Of a DNA stretch of 47,795 bases, positions 642 through 47,795 are shown piece by piece. Position numbers and translations under genes: made by a program. Location: positions 1 to 47,795 of IMG/VR virus record IMGVR_UViG_3300037088_000099. One strand, 5' to 3'. This stretch comes from a virus. Under the pieces are notes generated by a model. The model was not told the DNA's origin and ran no database searches. It was given only the letters and a program-made list of their open reading frames with translations. How positions within the stretch are numbered: the first letter of the stretch is position 1; each line of letters starts with the position of its first letter.

Positions 642-1202
642 CTATGACAATCCCATATCTATCCTATCGGCTATCAACATCAGCTGAATATCTCCATAAT
701 GAATCACGAGTTGCGCTCTATCTCCGTCCATCTGCATTCCCAGCTCTCGCAGTTCGCTGGTATCTCGCAGCACGTGCAGAACGCGAGCGTATGAAGAACG
801 TATAATTCGCAGTACAAAAGAGTGTAGGTGCTTTGGCTTACCCTCGCTCTCTATCACCTTTCATCTCTATCACATACGCCATACCCTCTCAAGGTGGCGA
901 GGGGGGGTATGGCACGCGTGTGCTTTGAATTTCTCTCTCTCTGCTTTTCTCTGATTCGTGTTGAATTTGAGATTCTATTACAGAGTGCTCTTGTATTATA
1001 AAAAAAAAATATTTTTATAATATATAAGAGAACAGAAACTATGAAAGAGAAATCAATAGAAATTGAGAATTAGCACGGAAGAGAAATCATCGCTGCAAGC
1101 GTACGCACACCCCGATGTCTACCTTGAGAGGGTATCGGGTATGTCGATGATATGATGAGGGTTAGGCCGAAGTCTATCCAAAACCGCCTACACACTTTTG
1201 TC

Positions 1203-1231
1203 TTGACACGATGGCTTCGCCGGTATATGAT
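1203..1231 (+). promoter_or_regulatory. sigma70-like promoter (TTGACA, 17-nt spacer, TATGAT)
   Basis: TTGACA at 1203-1208 and TATGAT at 1226-1231. The cTTGACAc core recurs at 4121 and 9423. The predicted transcript start falls at the ATG at 1238. Confidence 0.45.
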
Positions 1232-4821: not shown

Positions 4822-4860
4822 TGGCGCACGTTCAGTAAAATGGGCGTGCGCCATTTTTAA
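4822..4860 (+). terminator. intrinsic terminator
   Basis: Stem TGGCGCACG (4822-4830) pairs with CGTGCGCCA (4845-4853), followed by a T5 run, about 35 nt after the stop at 4787. Confidence 0.55.
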
Positions 4861-7553: not shown

Positions 7554-8203
7554 TACAGAAACCAATCGTCTCTAGCAACGGGCGAATTCTTACCGGATTG
7601 GCTGCGCGGAAAGCACAGCTCGCGTCTGAGCTTGGGTTGCCGCAGGAGCTAAAACCGGGGCAGATGGAGCATAGGATTGGAATAGTATTTGATGATTCTG
7701 GTTCTATGCGAACGGATATGATCGAAGACGCGCATGTAGGATGCGAGGAATTCTTACGCTACTGCGAACCGAATAAAACCGCGGTATGTGTATATCCTAT
7801 GAACGCGGATGAGCTGTCGCTTAGTACGAATCTTCCTGCGCTCGCTATGCTTATCAATGGTATCCACGCAACAGGTGGGACTCCGTTGATTCAAAAGCTC
7901 AGTAAGATGCTGCGCGCGAATAAGCTCACACGCGCGATCGTATTTAGTGACGGGTGCCCGCAGTCGTATTCAGACGTAGACTATAATTTCTGTGTGGAAT
8001 CTAAGATTCCGGTAGACACAGTATTCATTGGTTCTGGCTATGGTAGCGAGTTCATGCAAAAGCTCGCCTCTGATTGCAACGGCATATTCCTGCAATTCGA
8101 GCGCGGAAAGTCTAATTTTCGTACTGCATTCAAATATCTGAGTCCCGGACTTCGGTATATGCTTGCGGACTCTTCATTCAGGGAAAAAATACAAGGGAGA
8201 TAG
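7535..8203 (+). CDS. von Willebrand factor type A (vWA) domain protein
   Basis: MIDAS-type DxSxS motif in IGIVFDDSGSM, then ATGGT and IVFSDG motifs in vWA order. No signal peptide. Confidence 0.75.
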   Translation: MPSLTVIQKPIVSSNGRILTGLAARKAQLASELGLPQELKPGQMEHRIGIVFDDSGSMRTDMIEDAHVGCEEFLRYCEPNKTAVCVYPMNADELSLSTNLPALAMLINGIHATGGTPLIQKLSKMLRANKLTRAIVFSDGCPQSYSDVDYNFCVESKIPVDTVFIGSGYGSEFMQKLASDCNGIFLQFERGKSNFRTAFKYLSPGLRYMLADSSFREKIQGR

Positions 8204-8204
8204 C

Positions 8205-9323
8205 GTGCCACTCACCCAAGAACAAGCACTTATCACCGCGCTCCTATCTCAAAAGCTTTCTGCGCTACGTATTCGCGCGAGCTTCGAGAGTGTCGAGCCG
8301 GGGCCAATAGTCACAACCTATTACATGCATCTCGGTGCTGATATTCCTATCTCCAAAATAATGCGAGCGGAGGAAGACCTTGCGCTGGCAGTTGGAGCAC
8401 CGAGCGTACTTATAACACGAAAGGGGGCTTCAATTGCGATTGCGATTCCGAATAAGGAAAGAACTGTCGTATCTTACGATTCTTGTTTGCACTCACTTAT
8501 GCAGGATGCTAATTGTCAGTTGCCAATTATGCTTGGAGTTGACACGAAAGGTAATGAGAAACATATTGATCTTATCGAATCACCGCACATTCTCATTGCA
8601 GGTAGTACAGGTGCAGGCAAGTCAGTATTACTTGCAGCAATCATTAGTGGGCTTGCTACAGCCAAGAGTAAGCATGAACTCAAAATGATGCTTGTAGACA
8701 CCAAGCAGCTTGATCTAACTCTATTTGCAGACCTCCCGCATGTAGTGGAGGTCGCAGATGATTTAGAGAAAGTGCATTTGCTACTTGATCGCTTACACAT
8801 CATAGTCCGCCAGCGTACAGCGAAGATGAAGGGTATAGCACGGAATCTTTCTGAGTACAACGCGCTGGGCGATCATCAACTTCCGTATTATGTAGTTGTT
8901 ATAGATGAGCTTGCAGATGTGCTAATGCAGGATCGAAGTGCCGGGAAAGGAATACGAGGATATGAAAAAGCTGAAACAAAGCTACAGGGTTTATTGCAGA
9001 TATGCCGCGCAGCGGGAATTCACATCATTTGTGCTACACAACGCCCCTCGGTGGAAATTATTACTGGTGATATTAAAGCTAATATACTTACGCGAATTGC
9101 ACTTAGGCTACCTAGTGGGGCTGACAGTAGAACTGTATTAAATGAATACGGAGCCGAAAAACTCCTCGGACGTGGAGACATGCTTATCGAATCCCCCTGC
9201 TTCGACCAAATAACCAGATTCCACGGGCCGTTTGTGAGCATGGCTCATATAGCAAGCGTGTTGGATAACTGTGATGGTATTAGGAATAGTTATAAAATGC
9301 TGGAATCGAGTATCGGGTTGTAG
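8205..9323 (+). CDS. FtsK/SpoIIIE-family DNA translocase ATPase (motor domain only)
   Basis: Walker A IAGSTGAGKSVLL, Walker B YYVVVIDELADVL, and a C-terminal block ICATQRPSVEIITGDIKANILTRIAL that closely matches the FtsK motor. GTG at 8205 with AGGGAG upstream sits 1 nt after the vWA stop; the ORF track's longer TTG start is at 8163. Confidence 0.8.
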   Translation: MPLTQEQALITALLSQKLSALRIRASFESVEPGPIVTTYYMHLGADIPISKIMRAEEDLALAVGAPSVLITRKGASIAIAIPNKERTVVSYDSCLHSLMQDANCQLPIMLGVDTKGNEKHIDLIESPHILIAGSTGAGKSVLLAAIISGLATAKSKHELKMMLVDTKQLDLTLFADLPHVVEVADDLEKVHLLLDRLHIIVRQRTAKMKGIARNLSEYNALGDHQLPYYVVVIDELADVLMQDRSAGKGIRGYEKAETKLQGLLQICRAAGIHIICATQRPSVEIITGDIKANILTRIALRLPSGADSRTVLNEYGAEKLLGRGDMLIESPCFDQITRFHGPFVSMAHIASVLDNCDGIRNSYKMLESSIGL

Positions 9324-9396
9324 GCGAGGTCGGGTCGCGCCTGATGGGTCGATGGGTCGAATCGGGCTAAGTCGTCTGTATAGAGCCATTTAGATA

Positions 9397-9479
9397 GGGT
9401 ATATCACCTATCAAAAGACCCCTTGACACGCCTACCCGCCGGATGATAGACTGTAATACAGGGTGAGCTTTACCCTATC
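9397..9479 (+). promoter_or_regulatory. promoter (TTGACA at 9423-9428) bracketed by a 9-bp inverted repeat
   Basis: GATAGGGTA at about 9397 and its reverse complement TACCCTATC at about 9471 flank cTTGACAc, with a TAGACT-like -10 about 18 nt downstream. Confidence 0.4.
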
Positions 9480-9509
9480 ATGCTTTAGCACCACAAAGGA
9501 CACAGCACA

Positions 9510-9734
9510 ATGACCGCTCCAACTACCACACCCCGCGCATACGATGGCTACCATCGCAACACCGGGCGCAAAACCGAGATGGCAGCATTTCGGATATTCA
9601 CAGACCAGAACGCTGCGCTCAGTGCGAAGTATTCTGGCAACAGATCGGCACTTGTACGGATTCTATTGGAGCGGTTTTTAAGCGGTACTATGCCGAGTGT
9701 TGAAGCGGAATTTAAACAACTAACCGAACGATAA
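9510..9734 (+). CDS. ribbon-helix-helix-like small regulator
   Basis: 74-aa ORF; AAFRIFTDQNAALSAKYSGNRSALVRILLERFL fits a beta-strand plus two-helix RHH pattern. Sits directly downstream of the inverted-repeat promoter. Confidence 0.55.
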   Translation: MTAPTTTPRAYDGYHRNTGRKTEMAAFRIFTDQNAALSAKYSGNRSALVRILLERFLSGTMPSVEAEFKQLTER

Positions 9735-9745
9735 TAGGAGTAGGT

Positions 9746-10351
9746 ATGCCAACGCAAGATGGCGAAACCATCCCAGTCTGTCCCGCGTGTGACGCGAAGG
9801 ATGAGACGAAGATATGTTTGAAGTGCCACATTGTATACTGTGCGCATTTCGCATCCGTAACGGATAATAGATTCTGCGAGAATTGTATATCTGATTTTTC
9901 TCTGAAAGAAACAATAGTAGAGAAATTAGTAGAGCATATTCGACCTGATGGCACTGTAACATTTTCAAGAAAGTATCAAGCTAGGTGTATTCACATGCAA
10001 GGAAATGATTGGTTGTTTGCAGCGACGCTGATTCCTGAAATGTCGGATGCGGAGATTGACGCGACGATTGAGTATCATAGGAATAATGTGTCACTGATGC
10101 TTATGGAGCGCGAATCGCGGAAGCTCGAACGGTACCATAAACTCGCGGGCGTAAAAATCACCAATACCAAGCATGAATCGCAGGAAGCGCGGGAGAAGCG
10201 AGAAGAAAAAGAAGCGAATAAGAAAACTCGCACAAGTACGAAGGAAAAAGCTCCGACTGTGGATGATATGGTTGCGATGATTACGAAGTTGGCGAAGGCT
10301 GGATTGACGCAAGAGCAGATTACAGCGATGTTTGCGAAGGGGAAGAAATGA
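9746..10351 (+). CDS. zinc-finger protein, hypothetical
   Basis: 201-aa ORF with N-terminal CPAC...CLKCH...YC cluster and a Lys/Glu-rich central region. Confidence 0.6.
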   Translation: MPTQDGETIPVCPACDAKDETKICLKCHIVYCAHFASVTDNRFCENCISDFSLKETIVEKLVEHIRPDGTVTFSRKYQARCIHMQGNDWLFAATLIPEMSDAEIDATIEYHRNNVSLMLMERESRKLERYHKLAGVKITNTKHESQEAREKREEKEANKKTRTSTKEKAPTVDDMVAMITKLAKAGLTQEQITAMFAKGKK

Positions 10352-10653
10352 GCGAGAAATTAGAAGGTATCTGTGGAGTTTGTGGCAGATCACGCATTGA
10401 ATGCCGCAAAAATATCTTAGGTTTAGCTACAAATGCACCGGAAGCTGATCTCATAAATCACCCTTCTCACTACACCGACGGCGGAATTGAAACAATCGAC
10501 TTTATTGAAGCGAAGAAATTGAATTATAATTGTGGGAACGCAACTAAGTATATCAGTCGTGCTGGAAAGAAAGACAAAGCGGAGCGCGCAGTTGATATTG
10601 CGAAGGCGATTTGGTACTTGCAGCGGGAGCTTGATACTCTGAAAGGAAAGTAA
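10348..10653 (+). CDS. small phage protein with HPSHY/GGIETIDFI motif (DUF3310-like)
   Basis: 101-aa ORF; NHPSHYTDGGIETIDFIEAK resembles a conserved small phage family recalled from memory, not searched. Confidence 0.5.
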   Translation: MSEKLEGICGVCGRSRIECRKNILGLATNAPEADLINHPSHYTDGGIETIDFIEAKKLNYNCGNATKYISRAGKKDKAERAVDIAKAIWYLQRELDTLKGK

Positions 10654-10654
10654 T

Positions 10655-11710
10655 ATGCAAATCGAAGAAGCAATCTCTCGCTACCACTGGTTCCAGCGTG
10701 GGGAAGATGGCGTAATCGAGCTATTCCTCGATCACCACGCGCTCGCAACTTTTCGCTCTTGCGAAGCGTCGTTTGAGCTATCAATGATGGCGAATATCCG
10801 GCCAGTACATAAAAGCTGGAATCTTGAATTTGGTATTATCTTTCACAAGATGATTGAAGAGTTTTATATTGCAAAGCGGGATGAGAAGTTTGAGCTTGTA
10901 CCCTGGCTGCAATTAGCAATCGGACTGTGGGACAAGTATCAGATGGAGGCGCAGTTTGGCGAGCATAAGATGTATAAGATGCTCGGCGGAGTATATGGAT
11001 TTATAGATATGCTCGCGCAGTATGCGGATCATTTTGCAGCAGAGGTTGATAGGCTACGGGTTATTGGGATTGAGATTACATTTGGAAAGAAGCGGGAAGT
11101 GCTGCTTGGCACATTTACAGCATATCAGCTTGATCCTACTCTGCAACCCCATTTTAAAATTGAGTTTGATGCGCAGGTTGAGCAAGTACGCTGCTACCTC
11201 ACAGGCCGTATCGACTTTCTAATGGACTCCGGTAACGCAATAGGCCCGCTAGATCACAAAACCACCGCATTCTTCCGTGGAAATCCTGCAAATACCTACG
11301 ATCCGCAAGAAGGAATGACAGGCTACATCTTCGCGGTGCAGCAAATTATGAAAACCAGTTTCCCTGAACTCCTGGGTCAGCGCAAAGTAGATCGCATTTG
11401 GATGAACTTCGCACAAGTAAGTCCAGTAAAAGATCCGATGGAGCGTTTCAAGCGTGTCCCGATATTCAAAACAGATTGGCAGCTTGAGCAATATCGGCTG
11501 CGACAACTACGGACATTTCATAAGATTTATGACATGATCGTACTTGGAGAGCGTGCGGATTGGAATACTTCTGTTTGTAATAATATGTTCCATAACGAAT
11601 GCCAGTATCGAAATTTGCATCGGCAGAATACAAATGATGCTATGATACAGGTGCTCAAAACTGATTTCAAGGTGGCAGCACCGTGGAATCCTGAGCAAAT
11701 AGAGGATTAG
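10655..11710 (+). CDS. PD-(D/E)XK nuclease, Cas4/RecB-like
   Basis: TGRIDFLMD followed by PLDHKTT matches the D ... (D/E)xK nuclease core; C-terminal cysteines (CNNMFHNEC) resemble a Cas4-like metal cluster. Confidence 0.6.
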   Translation: MQIEEAISRYHWFQRGEDGVIELFLDHHALATFRSCEASFELSMMANIRPVHKSWNLEFGIIFHKMIEEFYIAKRDEKFELVPWLQLAIGLWDKYQMEAQFGEHKMYKMLGGVYGFIDMLAQYADHFAAEVDRLRVIGIEITFGKKREVLLGTFTAYQLDPTLQPHFKIEFDAQVEQVRCYLTGRIDFLMDSGNAIGPLDHKTTAFFRGNPANTYDPQEGMTGYIFAVQQIMKTSFPELLGQRKVDRIWMNFAQVSPVKDPMERFKRVPIFKTDWQLEQYRLRQLRTFHKIYDMIVLGERADWNTSVCNNMFHNECQYRNLHRQNTNDAMIQVLKTDFKVAAPWNPEQIED

Positions 11711-11770
11711 AAACCTGCTGCTCACGTTCTGTGGGCAGTAAAGCGAACTTGCGGAAAAGGCAGGCGTACA

Positions 11771-12043
11771 ATGATTCCGTCACAACCCGCAAGCAACTCC
11801 GCAACGCAAACCCCTTCCCCCACGGCGGCTACTTCGGTAGCCGTCCCGCCTATGAGATTAGACGTGTCCGAGTCCGTGTGGCCGACTAGCACGATCCTGC
11901 ATGAAATCGAATGGTGCGCAAATCGTATCGCTACGCTTGAACCAATGTTATCCCGCAAGCCTTCAAAGAAGTGGGAAATAGCAGACCTGCGAAGGCAGAT
12001 AAAAGACAAGCGTGCAGTGATTGATTACAGGAGAACTCGGTGA
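11771..12043 (+). CDS. hypothetical protein
   Basis: 90-aa ORF in the same-strand array; an antisense ORF overlaps it, so confidence is modest. Confidence 0.4.
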   Translation: MIPSQPASNSATQTPSPTAATSVAVPPMRLDVSESVWPTSTILHEIEWCANRIATLEPMLSRKPSKKWEIADLRRQIKDKRAVIDYRRTR

Positions 12044-20620: not shown

Positions 20621-20670
20621 GCAGCAAAAAGAATGGCCACTCTATTAACTTAGAGTGGCCATTTTAGTTT
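20621..20670. terminator. bidirectional intrinsic terminator
   Basis: Perfect 12-bp stem AATGGCCACTCT / AGAGTGGCCATT (20632-20643 and 20652-20663) with an A-run on one side and a T-rich run on the other. Lies between the last + gene (stop 20610) and the last - gene (stop 20743). Confidence 0.65.
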
Positions 20671-47209: not shown

Positions 47210-47261
47210 ACTCCGCTCCCCTTTCCCGCGCACCCGCGCCGCACTGTGTTTACTATATATA

Positions 47262-47326
47262 GATAGGGGCAAAAAATCAATAGGGTATAGCGTGGGGTAT
47301 AGCGGTATTGGAATAGCGTATAGCGG
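47262..47326. repeat. iteron-like direct repeats (GGGTATAGCG x2, ATAGCG x2)
   Basis: GGGTATAGCG at 47283-47292 and 47295-47304, then ATAGCG and TATAGCG at 47313-47325, preceded by GATAGGGG. Confidence 0.6.
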
Positions 47327-47668: not shown

Positions 47669-47795
47669 TATAATGAACCTAGCCCCAGTACGGATGAGGC
47701 GAGAAAGACTCCGATTGGAGTAGGATGTATACCATGCAGATTACAATTACACTCACGGATGCACAGGAATCCGCCCTGTTTATGATGGGGAAGGA
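47669..47795. repeat. terminal direct repeat, right copy
   Basis: Exact copy of bases 1-127, including the first 71 nt of the ORF that starts at 57. Confidence 0.9.

What the first reader, a model, noticed from the sequence alone, without database searches (positions are those of the whole stretch)
9390..9734. RHH-like regulator downstream of a promoter bracketed by a 9-bp inverted repeat
GATAGGGTA and TACCCTATC flank the TTGACA promoter at 9423 over about 75 bp, immediately upstream of a 74-aa RHH-like protein. This looks like an autoregulatory operator and switch for the replication-gene block that follows.
Basis: partly seen in the sequence, partly recalled or inferred. Interest (0 to 1): 0.5.

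Follow-up and report, generated by a model that had tools for sequence, protein, structure and literature searches.

The report
Phage ribbon-helix-helix regulator with operator repeats
A small, previously unclassified DNA-binding protein of an uncultured phage sits behind a well-conserved promoter carrying copies of a short motif it probably binds to limit its own operon; this is an ordinary kind of phage control element, and the "bracketing" repeat geometry is not essential.

Summary
GATAGGGTA (9393-9401) and TACCCTATC (9471-9479) are a perfect 9-bp inverted repeat around TTGACA-18-TAGACT (9423-9452), 30 nt upstream of a 74-aa ORF (9510-9734).

The promoter hexamers and spacing are kept in eight diverged lineages of the same phage module: FtsK-like gene, promoter, regulator, ~200-aa zinc-finger protein, recombination and replication genes.

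The bracket itself is not conserved. Two close relatives with a 97%-identical protein lack the left arm. More distant relatives place the same half-site (AGGGTA/TACCCT) as short palindromes elsewhere around the promoter.

AGGGT is the most enriched 5-mer around these promoters (10 observed, 0.69 expected). Two further copies lie on the late-operon promoter (47262-47287).

Best reading: an RHH autoregulator heading the replication operon, with each arm a separate binding unit. This is a new sequence family of a known kind. No lysogeny genes were detected among the ORFs scanned, so a lysis-lysogeny switch has no support.

The parts
9393..9401 (+). Left arm GATAGGGTA, centred about -62 from the inferred transcription start. 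One copy of the YAGGGTA half-site.
   Evidence: Invariant in 8 close relatives, replaced in L023 and L034. L005 has GACAGGGTA at the homologous place.
9389..9416 (.). Local imperfect palindrome TTTAGATAGG-N8-CCTATCAAAA that contains the left arm.
   Evidence: pair I5, 90% complementary. It is weaker in L001 and is not a match to AGGGTANTACCCT within 3 mismatches.
9423..9452 (+). Sigma-70-type promoter: TTGACA, 18 nt, TAGACT, with TG at 9444-9445.
   Evidence: The hexamers and the 17/18-nt spacing are conserved in 8 lineages with unrelated spacers.
9451..9461 (.). 11-bp palindrome CTGTAaTACAG overlapping the end of the -10 and the inferred start site. It lies in the near-invariant block 9447-9470.
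   Evidence: Read. The block has 1 variable column in 24. Similar cores occur in L051 (CTGTATACAG) and L046 (ATACAgTGTAT).
9459..9465 (+). Third half-site copy CAGGGTG at about +1. With ACCCT at 9472-9476 it forms AGGGT-N7-ACCCT.
9471..9479 (-). Right arm TACCCTATC (GATAGGGTA on the minus strand), centred about +16.
   Evidence: Kept in most close relatives, 8 bp in L007/L008 and 7 bp in L028. It becomes GACACTATT in L005 and TACACTACC in L011.
9496..9500 (+). Ribosome-binding site AAGGA, 9 nt before the ATG.
   Evidence: AAGGA is present at the same place in L005, L011, L022, L047 and L049.
9510..9734 (+). Gene for the 74-aa RHH-like protein. It has an N-terminal arm FDGYHRNTGRKT, an extended segment at residues 21-30, and helices at 31-40, 45-58 and 62-73.
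9746..10351 (+). 201-aa Cys-rich (zinc-finger-like) protein. It follows the regulator in every lineage examined where the downstream sequence was held, so it is a possible functional partner.
47252..47280 (-). Candidate promoter of the leftward packaging and structural operon: TTGATT, 17 nt, TATAGT.
   Evidence: The block CCCCTATCTATATATAGTAA is identical in four lineages.
47262..47287 (+). Two more motif copies in direct orientation: GATAGGGG (47262-47269) inside the spacer of the late promoter, and AATAGGGTA (47279-47287) abutting its -35.
   Evidence: Conserved in L001, L005, L039 and L040; the second copy is TACTCTAT in L041.

Best explanation
The 74-aa protein belongs to an uncharacterised family with a ribbon-helix-helix fold. 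It is the first gene of the rightward recombination and replication operon of a lytic, host-RNA-polymerase-dependent phage.

The operon is driven by the sigma-70-type promoter at 9423-9452. I infer that the protein, as a dimer, recognises short units of the type YAGGGTA. Three copies surround its own promoter: about -62 (left arm), about +1 (CAGGGTG) and about +16 (right arm).

Occupying the +1 to +20 copies would block initiation or promoter escape. That gives negative autoregulation of the operon, which is the usual logic for an RHH gene at the head of its operon. The upstream copy would be an auxiliary site, helping by cooperativity or looping, and it is dispensable in some relatives.

Two further copies lie on the -35 and spacer of the late-operon promoter (47262-47287). 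The same protein may also hold late genes down, but this is more speculative.

Shown: the sequence features, the predicted fold, the conserved promoter, the synteny and the motif enrichment. Inferred: dimerisation, DNA binding, which protein binds, the sign of regulation and the start site.
For: Fold:
- AlphaFold with the 42-sequence alignment gives pLDDT 81, an extended segment at 21-30 and helices at 31-40, 45-58 and 62-73.
- The family consensus has T..(4 variable)..FR(I/V) followed by L...Y.GN.S.LVR.LL, that is a strand, helix A, a G-N-x-S turn and helix B.

Promoter:
- The hexamers and 17/18 spacing are kept in 8 lineages with unrelated spacers.
- Terminator-like hairpins lie just upstream in L020, L047 and L049 (read by eye).

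Motif:
- AGGGT/ACCCT is the top 5-mer of 332 tested (10 observed, 0.69 expected) and occurs in all 5 lineages. AGGGTA is the top 6-mer (7 observed, 0.29 expected). Both rank above the -35 words.
- The motif changes position between lineages while the predicted strand KTEMAAFRIF stays the same: it is upstream of the -35 in L005 and downstream of the -10 in L011.
- Four of five more distant lineages carry a perfect inverted repeat with arms of at least 6 bp on the core promoter. Each has a chance of about 0.09-0.18.
- 4 of 6 ATAGGGK sites and 3 of 4 GATAGGG sites in the genome lie in the two promoter regions.
- The block 9447-9470 is almost invariant in close relatives.

Context: the synteny is kept down to about 39% identity.
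Against: - No sequence-level membership in any RHH family.
- The first, shallow-alignment model was all-helical with pLDDT 61.
- Dimerisation could not be modelled.
- The bracket is absent from L023 and L034 although the protein is nearly identical.
- The L029-L033 lineage has no intergenic promoter in front of the gene.
- The lineages are related, so the motif counts are not fully independent.
- The motif was chosen after looking at the data.
- Genome-wide the motif is not over-represented.
- The arm centres are 78 bp apart, about 7.4 helical turns, which is not in phase for simple looping.
- Neither arm in this window belongs to a recognisable 13-bp palindrome.
Confidence: 0.6

Rival explanations
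1. The regulator does autoregulate, but the true operator is only the invariant block over the -10 and start site (9447-9479: CTGTAaTACAG and AGGGT-N7-ACCCT). The left arm is a lineage-specific coincidence with no role.
For: The block 9447-9470 has 1 variable column in 24. The left arm is missing in L023 and L034, whose protein is 97% identical. 9-bp inverted repeats are common in this genome. In the distant lineages the palindromes lie on the core promoter, not around it.
Against: The left arm has 0 of 9 variable columns in 8 relatives, against 37% of columns variable upstream. L005 keeps GACAGGGTA at the homologous place and completes it to a perfect palindrome. The same 7-mer recurs at the late promoter.
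Confidence: 0.2
2. The motif copies are bound by another factor, from the host or from another phage early protein. The 74-aa protein does something else with its constant neighbour, the 201-aa zinc-finger protein. It could be an antitoxin-like partner, or an adaptor or origin-binding subunit of the replication module.
Against: The 201-aa protein matches no toxin or defence family. The motif or palindrome travels with the gene's promoter across lineages. RHH antitoxins also autoregulate, so this rival does not exclude operator binding.
Confidence: 0.12
3. The repeat works at the RNA level, either as a long-range stem in read-through transcripts or as a 5'-terminal hairpin (AGGGUGAGCUUUACCCU) that stabilises or gates the mRNA.
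For: The minimum-free-energy fold of 9385-9490 pairs the two arms. The fold of 9459-9525 forms the 5' hairpin. L005 has AGUGU/ACACU at the homologous place, which looks compensatory.
Against: The folds are no better than shuffles (z = -1.44 and -0.02). The long-range pairing is lost in L005, L011, L023 and L034. The left arm lies upstream of the promoter. The palindromes in the relatives have a 1-nt centre, so their arms cannot pair fully as a hairpin. The same sequence, not just the pairing, recurs.
Confidence: 0.03

Closest known systems
[not shown]
   Same: A small RHH protein encoded first in an operon that goes on to replication functions. It has an operator on its own promoter, with a 13-bp (pseudo)symmetric element like AGGGTAaTACCCT in L005. 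The logic is negative autoregulation.
   Different: No detectable sequence similarity (hhalign probability 1%). This protein has a conserved 20-residue N-terminal arm and an extra C-terminal helix. In this window the sites are dispersed at about -62, +1 and +16 rather than forming one compact element.
[not shown]
   Same: Phage RHH proteins. Arc is the first gene of the operon it represses and also acts on a second promoter. That parallels the possible second target at the late promoter here.
   Different: Arc binds one 21-bp operator as two adjacent dimers. There is no sequence similarity. The P22 region controls an antirepressor in a temperate phage, whereas no lysogeny genes were detected here.
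[not shown]
   Same: An RHH dimer recognises one short (7-bp) unit, and units work in direct or inverted orientation at several promoters. That fits the same half-site facing either way and sitting at two promoters here.
   Different: Omega needs contiguous heptads, whereas here the copies are 12-78 bp apart. The hhalign alignment is in the right register but not significant (probability 4%). No ParA partner is present.
RHH antitoxins (RelB, DinJ, ParD, HicB, TacA)
   Same: These are among the best structural matches. They combine an N-terminal RHH domain with a C-terminal helix, autoregulate, and are tightly coupled to the downstream gene.
   Different: The downstream 201-aa protein matches no toxin or defence family. 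The pair is embedded in a conserved phage replication module.

Membership tests
Ribbon-helix-helix (MetJ/Arc/CopG) superfamily | Fold of about 45 residues: an N-terminal strand followed by two helices. | tested here: met
   [not shown]
Ribbon-helix-helix (MetJ/Arc/CopG) superfamily | A tight turn between the two helices with the G-x-(S/T/N) signature. | tested here: met
   The protein has G43-N44-R45-S46. S46 is at least 90% conserved in the 42-member alignment, and G43 and N44 are invariant in the close sets. That this signature is typical of RHH proteins is own knowledge.
Ribbon-helix-helix (MetJ/Arc/CopG) superfamily | Obligate intertwined dimer whose two strands form an antiparallel sheet. 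| not testable with these tools
   Only monomer prediction was available. The unpaired extended segment with pLDDT 87 is compatible with a dimer but does not show one.
Ribbon-helix-helix (MetJ/Arc/CopG) superfamily | The sheet inserts into the major groove of repeated or palindromic sites. | not testable with these tools
   There is only indirect support: enrichment of AGGGT(A) and palindromes at the promoter.
Pfam / NCBIfam RHH families (RHH_1, Arc, MetJ, etc.) | A sequence match above the curated threshold. | tested here: not met
   No family was matched by the protein or by any of the 42 relatives in Pfam. There was nothing relevant in PHROGs or NCBIfam, and no PDB sequence match. hhalign against Arc, CopG and omega gave probabilities of 4% or less.
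Type II toxin-antitoxin pair with an RHH antitoxin | An adjacent gene for a recognisable toxin. | tested here: not met
   The downstream 201-aa protein has no Pfam, PHROG, PADLOC or NCBIfam toxin match.
Autoregulated operator-promoter unit | The regulator gene lies directly behind a promoter that carries repeated or palindromic sites conserved with the gene. | tested here: met
   The promoter is conserved in 8 lineages, and palindromes or AGGGT copies lie on or near it in most of them. Exception: the L029-L033 lineage has no such promoter.
Autoregulated operator-promoter unit | The protein binds those sites and changes transcription. | not testable with these tools
   This needs a gel shift, a footprint or a reporter assay.
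Lysis-lysogeny switch | Integrase, repressor or antirepressor genes and divergent immunity promoters. | tested here: not met
   No integrase or CI/Cro-like family appeared in the 50 ORFs scanned. Not every small ORF was scanned.

The most novel reading that the evidence does not exclude
The family would be a new RHH lineage, marked by a conserved FDGYHxxTGRKT arm and a C-terminal LPxVExxF helix. Its members would read single YAGGGTA units in any orientation. In this RNA-polymerase-less lytic phage the protein would be the temporal controller. It would shut its own replication operon and gate the late packaging and structural operon through the two sites on that promoter, perhaps together with its constant zinc-finger neighbour.
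Probability: 0.2. Interest if true: 0.45.

Novelty: new member of a known kind. Interest (0 to 1): 0.28.

Why it matters
It gives a function-level annotation to a protein family that no database names: 42 clusters among 1.84 billion representatives, all examined members lying in one phage module. It also marks a transcription-unit boundary and a candidate regulatory motif in a clade of uncultured phages with no close cultured relative; terminase identity to known phages is about 21-32%. It adds no new principle, because RHH autoregulators at the head of plasmid and phage operons are textbook. The useful general point is methodological. A neat inverted repeat around a promoter was not the conserved unit, and comparison showed that the half-site, not the geometry, is what persists.

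Tried and rejected
- Nucleotide similarity of 8000-12000 to INPHARED phages found nothing. A tblastn of the protein against phages found nothing even at E of 1 or less.
- The genome-contig scan for a host or prophage copy found nothing.
- The first AlphaFold run, with 5 close sequences, was uninformative (pLDDT 61).
- Foldseek against the PDB and BFVD gave no usable hits. The afdb_sample library was unavailable.
- I tried to read both arms as the good halves of two 13-bp pseudo-palindromes AGGGTA-N-TACCCT, which L005 has perfectly and L011 with one mismatch. The window's own sites do not come within 3 mismatches, and the pattern is not enriched in the genome (16 found, 11.8 expected). I dropped this for the window and keep it only for the relatives.
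- An RNA stem or hairpin was rejected on z-scores and lack of conservation.
- A terminator role for the local palindrome 9389-9416 was rejected. No T-run follows it on either strand, and the scan lists no plus-strand terminator in 8500-10500.
- A partition (ParG-like) reading was not pursued. The upstream ATPase is FtsK/HerA-like, not ParA.
- Weak TetR-like matches (PDB 2qtq at E = 0.5; NCBIfam PsrA at 16.9 bits against a cut-off of 300) are only a shared helix-cap motif.

Full report
**1. The observation**

The sequence is as described. GATAGGGTA occupies 9393-9401 and its reverse complement TACCCTATC occupies 9471-9479, with 69 nt between the arms.

Between them lies TTGACA (9423-9428), an 18-nt spacer and TAGACT (9447-9452) with an upstream TG, matching 10 of 12 consensus positions. 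A 74-aa ORF starts at ATG 9510, nine bases after AAGGA.

The repeat alone is not statistically remarkable:
- The genome contains 78 perfect 9-mer inverted pairs within 100 nt, against 21 +/- 6.5 in shuffles.
- Neither the 9-mer nor its core is over-represented genome-wide.
- Consensus promoter matches are no more frequent than in shuffles.

The case therefore rests on placement and comparison.

**2. What the window is**

Bases 47669-47795 repeat bases 1-127, so the window is a complete 47,668-bp genome.

The plus strand (57 to about 20610) carries early, recombination and replication genes:
- a vWA-like protein and an FtsK/SpoIIIE-like ATPase
- the 74-aa ORF and a 201-aa Cys-rich protein
- a DUF3310 protein, a PD-(D/E)XK exonuclease and a Sak4-like ATPase
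- a thymidylate synthase, a family-A DNA polymerase and a primase/helicase

The minus strand (47212 down to 20743) carries large terminase, portal, major head and tail-spike genes.

No integrase, repressor module or phage RNA polymerase was detected among the ORFs scanned. The nearest cultured relatives are freshwater cyanobacterial podoviruses, at only 21-32% terminase identity. There is no nucleotide match to known phages.

**3. The protein**

It matches nothing in Pfam, PHROGs, NCBIfam or PADLOC, and nothing in the PDB by sequence.

The word-indexed search found only four close clusters. The exhaustive profile search found 42 representative clusters among 1.84 billion proteins. None of the 42 hits Pfam or a PHROG.

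Their alignment shows a conserved arm (R)xFDG(Y/F)xxxTG(R/K)KT. It is followed by four variable residues, then FR(I/V)(Y/F), then L...Y.GN.S.LVR.LL..F..G.LP.V...F.

- With five close sequences, AlphaFold was uninformative (pLDDT 61).
- With the 42-sequence alignment it gave pLDDT 81, an extended segment at 21-30 (block pLDDT 87) and helices at 31-40, 45-58 and 62-73.

I accept "RHH-like" at the fold level. Sequence-level membership of any curated RHH family was tested and not met. Dimerisation could not be tested.

**4. Relatives and the promoter**

Relatives come only from metagenomic phage contigs. None was found in 185,579 species genomes.

The order FtsK-like gene, regulator, ~200-aa Cys-rich protein, DUF3310/DUF6378, PD-(D/E)XK and Sak4-like is kept down to about 39% identity.

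In eight lineages the regulator gene is preceded by TTGAC[AG], 17 or 18 nt, and TAnnnT, with unrelated spacers. That is good comparative evidence for a working promoter. In L020, L047 and L049 a terminator-like hairpin with a T-run precedes it (read by eye). The regulator therefore opens a transcription unit.

One lineage (L029-L033) has two extra ORFs inserted and no such promoter.

**5. Is the bracket conserved?**

Only partly. Within the close clade (10 distinct sequences):
- The left arm is invariant in eight (0 of 9 variable columns, against 25 of 68 upstream).
- The block from the -10 to 9470 is almost invariant (1 variable column in 24).
- L023 and L034 encode a protein 97% identical to the window's, with an identical predicted strand. 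They carry an unrelated sequence in place of the left arm.
- L007/L008 keep 8 bp of the repeat and L028 keeps 7 bp.

At 71-75% identity, where the strand is still KTEMAAFRIF:
- L005 keeps GACAGGGTA on the left but has GACACTATT on the right.
- Instead, it has the perfect 13-bp palindrome AGGGTAaTACCCT just upstream of the -35, and a symmetric variant AGTGTAaGACACT downstream.

In the L011 lineage:
- AGGGTAaTACACT lies downstream of the -10, and the upstream copy is gone.
- The protein carries a 41-residue C-terminal extension that looks like a helix-turn-helix, although Pfam finds nothing in it.

The conserved thing is the half-site, not the geometry.

**6. Motif statistics**

I ran an unbiased k-mer scan of -60 to +95 around the -35 in five lineages, against a background built from six loci.
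- AGGGT/ACCCT ranked first of 332 5-mers (10 observed, 0.69 expected, present in all five lineages).
- AGGGTA/TACCCT ranked first of 535 6-mers (7 observed, 0.29 expected).
- Both ranked ahead of the -35 words.

The lineages are related, so these are not independent trials. However, the positions differ between lineages.

The more distant lineages carry their own palindromes on the core promoter:
- L020: ACCCTG-N4-CAGGGT
- L049: ACACCC-N9-GGGTGT
- L046: AATACAC-N13-GTGTATT
- L022: GTATAC-N5-GTATAC
- L051: GGCCTgtatacAGaGGCC (imperfect)

Four of these five contain a perfect repeat with arms of at least 6 bp. Each has a chance of about 0.09-0.18 in shuffles.

**7. A second target?**

In this genome, 4 of 6 ATAGGGK sites and 3 of 4 GATAGGG sites lie in two promoter regions. 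Non-coding DNA is about 5% of the genome.

The second region is the head of the leftward packaging and structural operon. TTGATT-17-TATAGT lies on the minus strand (47280..47252). ACCCTAT abuts the -35 and CCCCTATC sits in the spacer.

The block CCCCTATCTATATATAGTAA is identical in four lineages, and TACCCTAT is kept in three of them. Whether the 74-aa protein binds there is inference.

**8. Mechanism**

Taking the start site as about 9459 (inferred from the -10), the copies sit at about -62, +1 and +16. An 11-bp palindrome CTGTAaTACAG covers the end of the -10 and the start.

The most economical reading is negative autoregulation by occupancy of the start region, with an optional upstream helper site.

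This is how CopG (copG-repB), Arc (arc-ant) and RHH antitoxins work (own knowledge). Omega shows that an RHH dimer can read a single 7-bp unit in either orientation at several promoters (PMC9499535; PDB 2bnw).

The arm centres are 78 bp apart, about 7.4 turns, which does not favour a simple in-phase loop.

RNA-level readings are weak. The folds are no better than shuffles, and the pairing is not conserved.

**9. Verdict**

It is wrong in one detail, because the bracket is not a single conserved operator. It is also over-stated in calling this a switch. This is a new sequence family of a familiar kind of regulator, of modest interest.

Noticed in passing
window 47669-47795 versus 1-127: The window ends with an exact 127-bp repeat of its start. 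It is therefore a complete genome of 47,668 bp, either circularly assembled or terminally redundant.
   Followed up: yes
window 9332-9359 (also 9326-9375): Three direct GGGTCG copies, including the tandem TGGGTCGA TGGGTCGA, lie immediately after the stop codon of the FtsK-like gene. They are the only plus-strand copies in the genome (10 in all, chance 11). Similar GGGTCG clusters occur at the same place in L001, L005 and L011. Their function is unknown; they could be a binding array for another protein, possibly the FtsK-like ATPase.
   Followed up: partly
window 9367-9393: There is a hairpin-like element CTAAGTCG-TCT-GTAT-AGA-GCCATTTAG just upstream of the left arm. Close relatives carry CTC...GAG in place of TCT...AGA, which looks compensatory. 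There are only two or three haplotypes, so this may reflect recombination rather than selection.
   Followed up: no
window 47284-47325: An array of TATAGCG-type repeats (GGGTATAGCGT, GGGTATAGCGG, AATAGCGTATAGCGG) lies in the divergent control region next to the late promoter. L005 has ATAGCGCGCTAT and GCTATACGC at the same place. It may be a separate regulatory or packaging-related site.
   Followed up: no
window 805-1210: This large intergenic region holds a 9-bp-arm hairpin (GCCATACCC 878-886 / GGGTATGGC 905-913), CTCTATCAC direct repeats (849, 865) and an A/T palindrome (994-1022). It also holds further AGGGTA copies (839, 882, 1129) and a strong promoter TTGACA-17-TATGAT at 1203. It could be an origin or an early control region.
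   Followed up: no
L011/L012/L013/L027 (for example L011 2563-2910): In this lineage the regulator is 115 aa. It has a 41-residue C-terminal extension (…TPSETAAEIGVSAQRAHQILHPER) that reads like a helix-turn-helix, although Pfam finds nothing. This may be a fusion of two DNA-binding modules.
   Followed up: partly
window, 12 sites (2769, 4217, 6354, 7550, 8625, 9453, 13720, 26263, 27016, 33087, 43392, 46160): The palindromic heptamer GTAWTAC occurs 12 times against 5.0 +/- 2.3 expected, and no shuffle of 100 reached 12. Up to about half of the sites lie in or beside intergenic regions. Some follow a -10-like TATAGT or sit in ribosome-binding regions. This is unexplained.
   Followed up: partly
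window 4822-4853 and 20632-20663: A strong plus-strand terminator (13-bp stem followed by a T-run) lies at 4822-4853. A 13-bp-arm inverted repeat lies at 20632-20663, where the rightward and leftward gene blocks converge, and is probably a bidirectional terminator.
   Followed up: no
L047 3582-4040; L030 1318-1999: The gap between the FtsK-like gene and the regulator is an insertion hot spot. One lineage has an HNH endonuclease gene there and another has two small ORFs.
   Followed up: no
window 8163-9323: The phage FtsK/SpoIIIE-like ATPase matches the C-terminal part of the defence proteins SspH (E = 4e-43) and mads8 in PADLOC. This probably reflects only the shared FtsK/HerA motor domain.
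   Followed up: no
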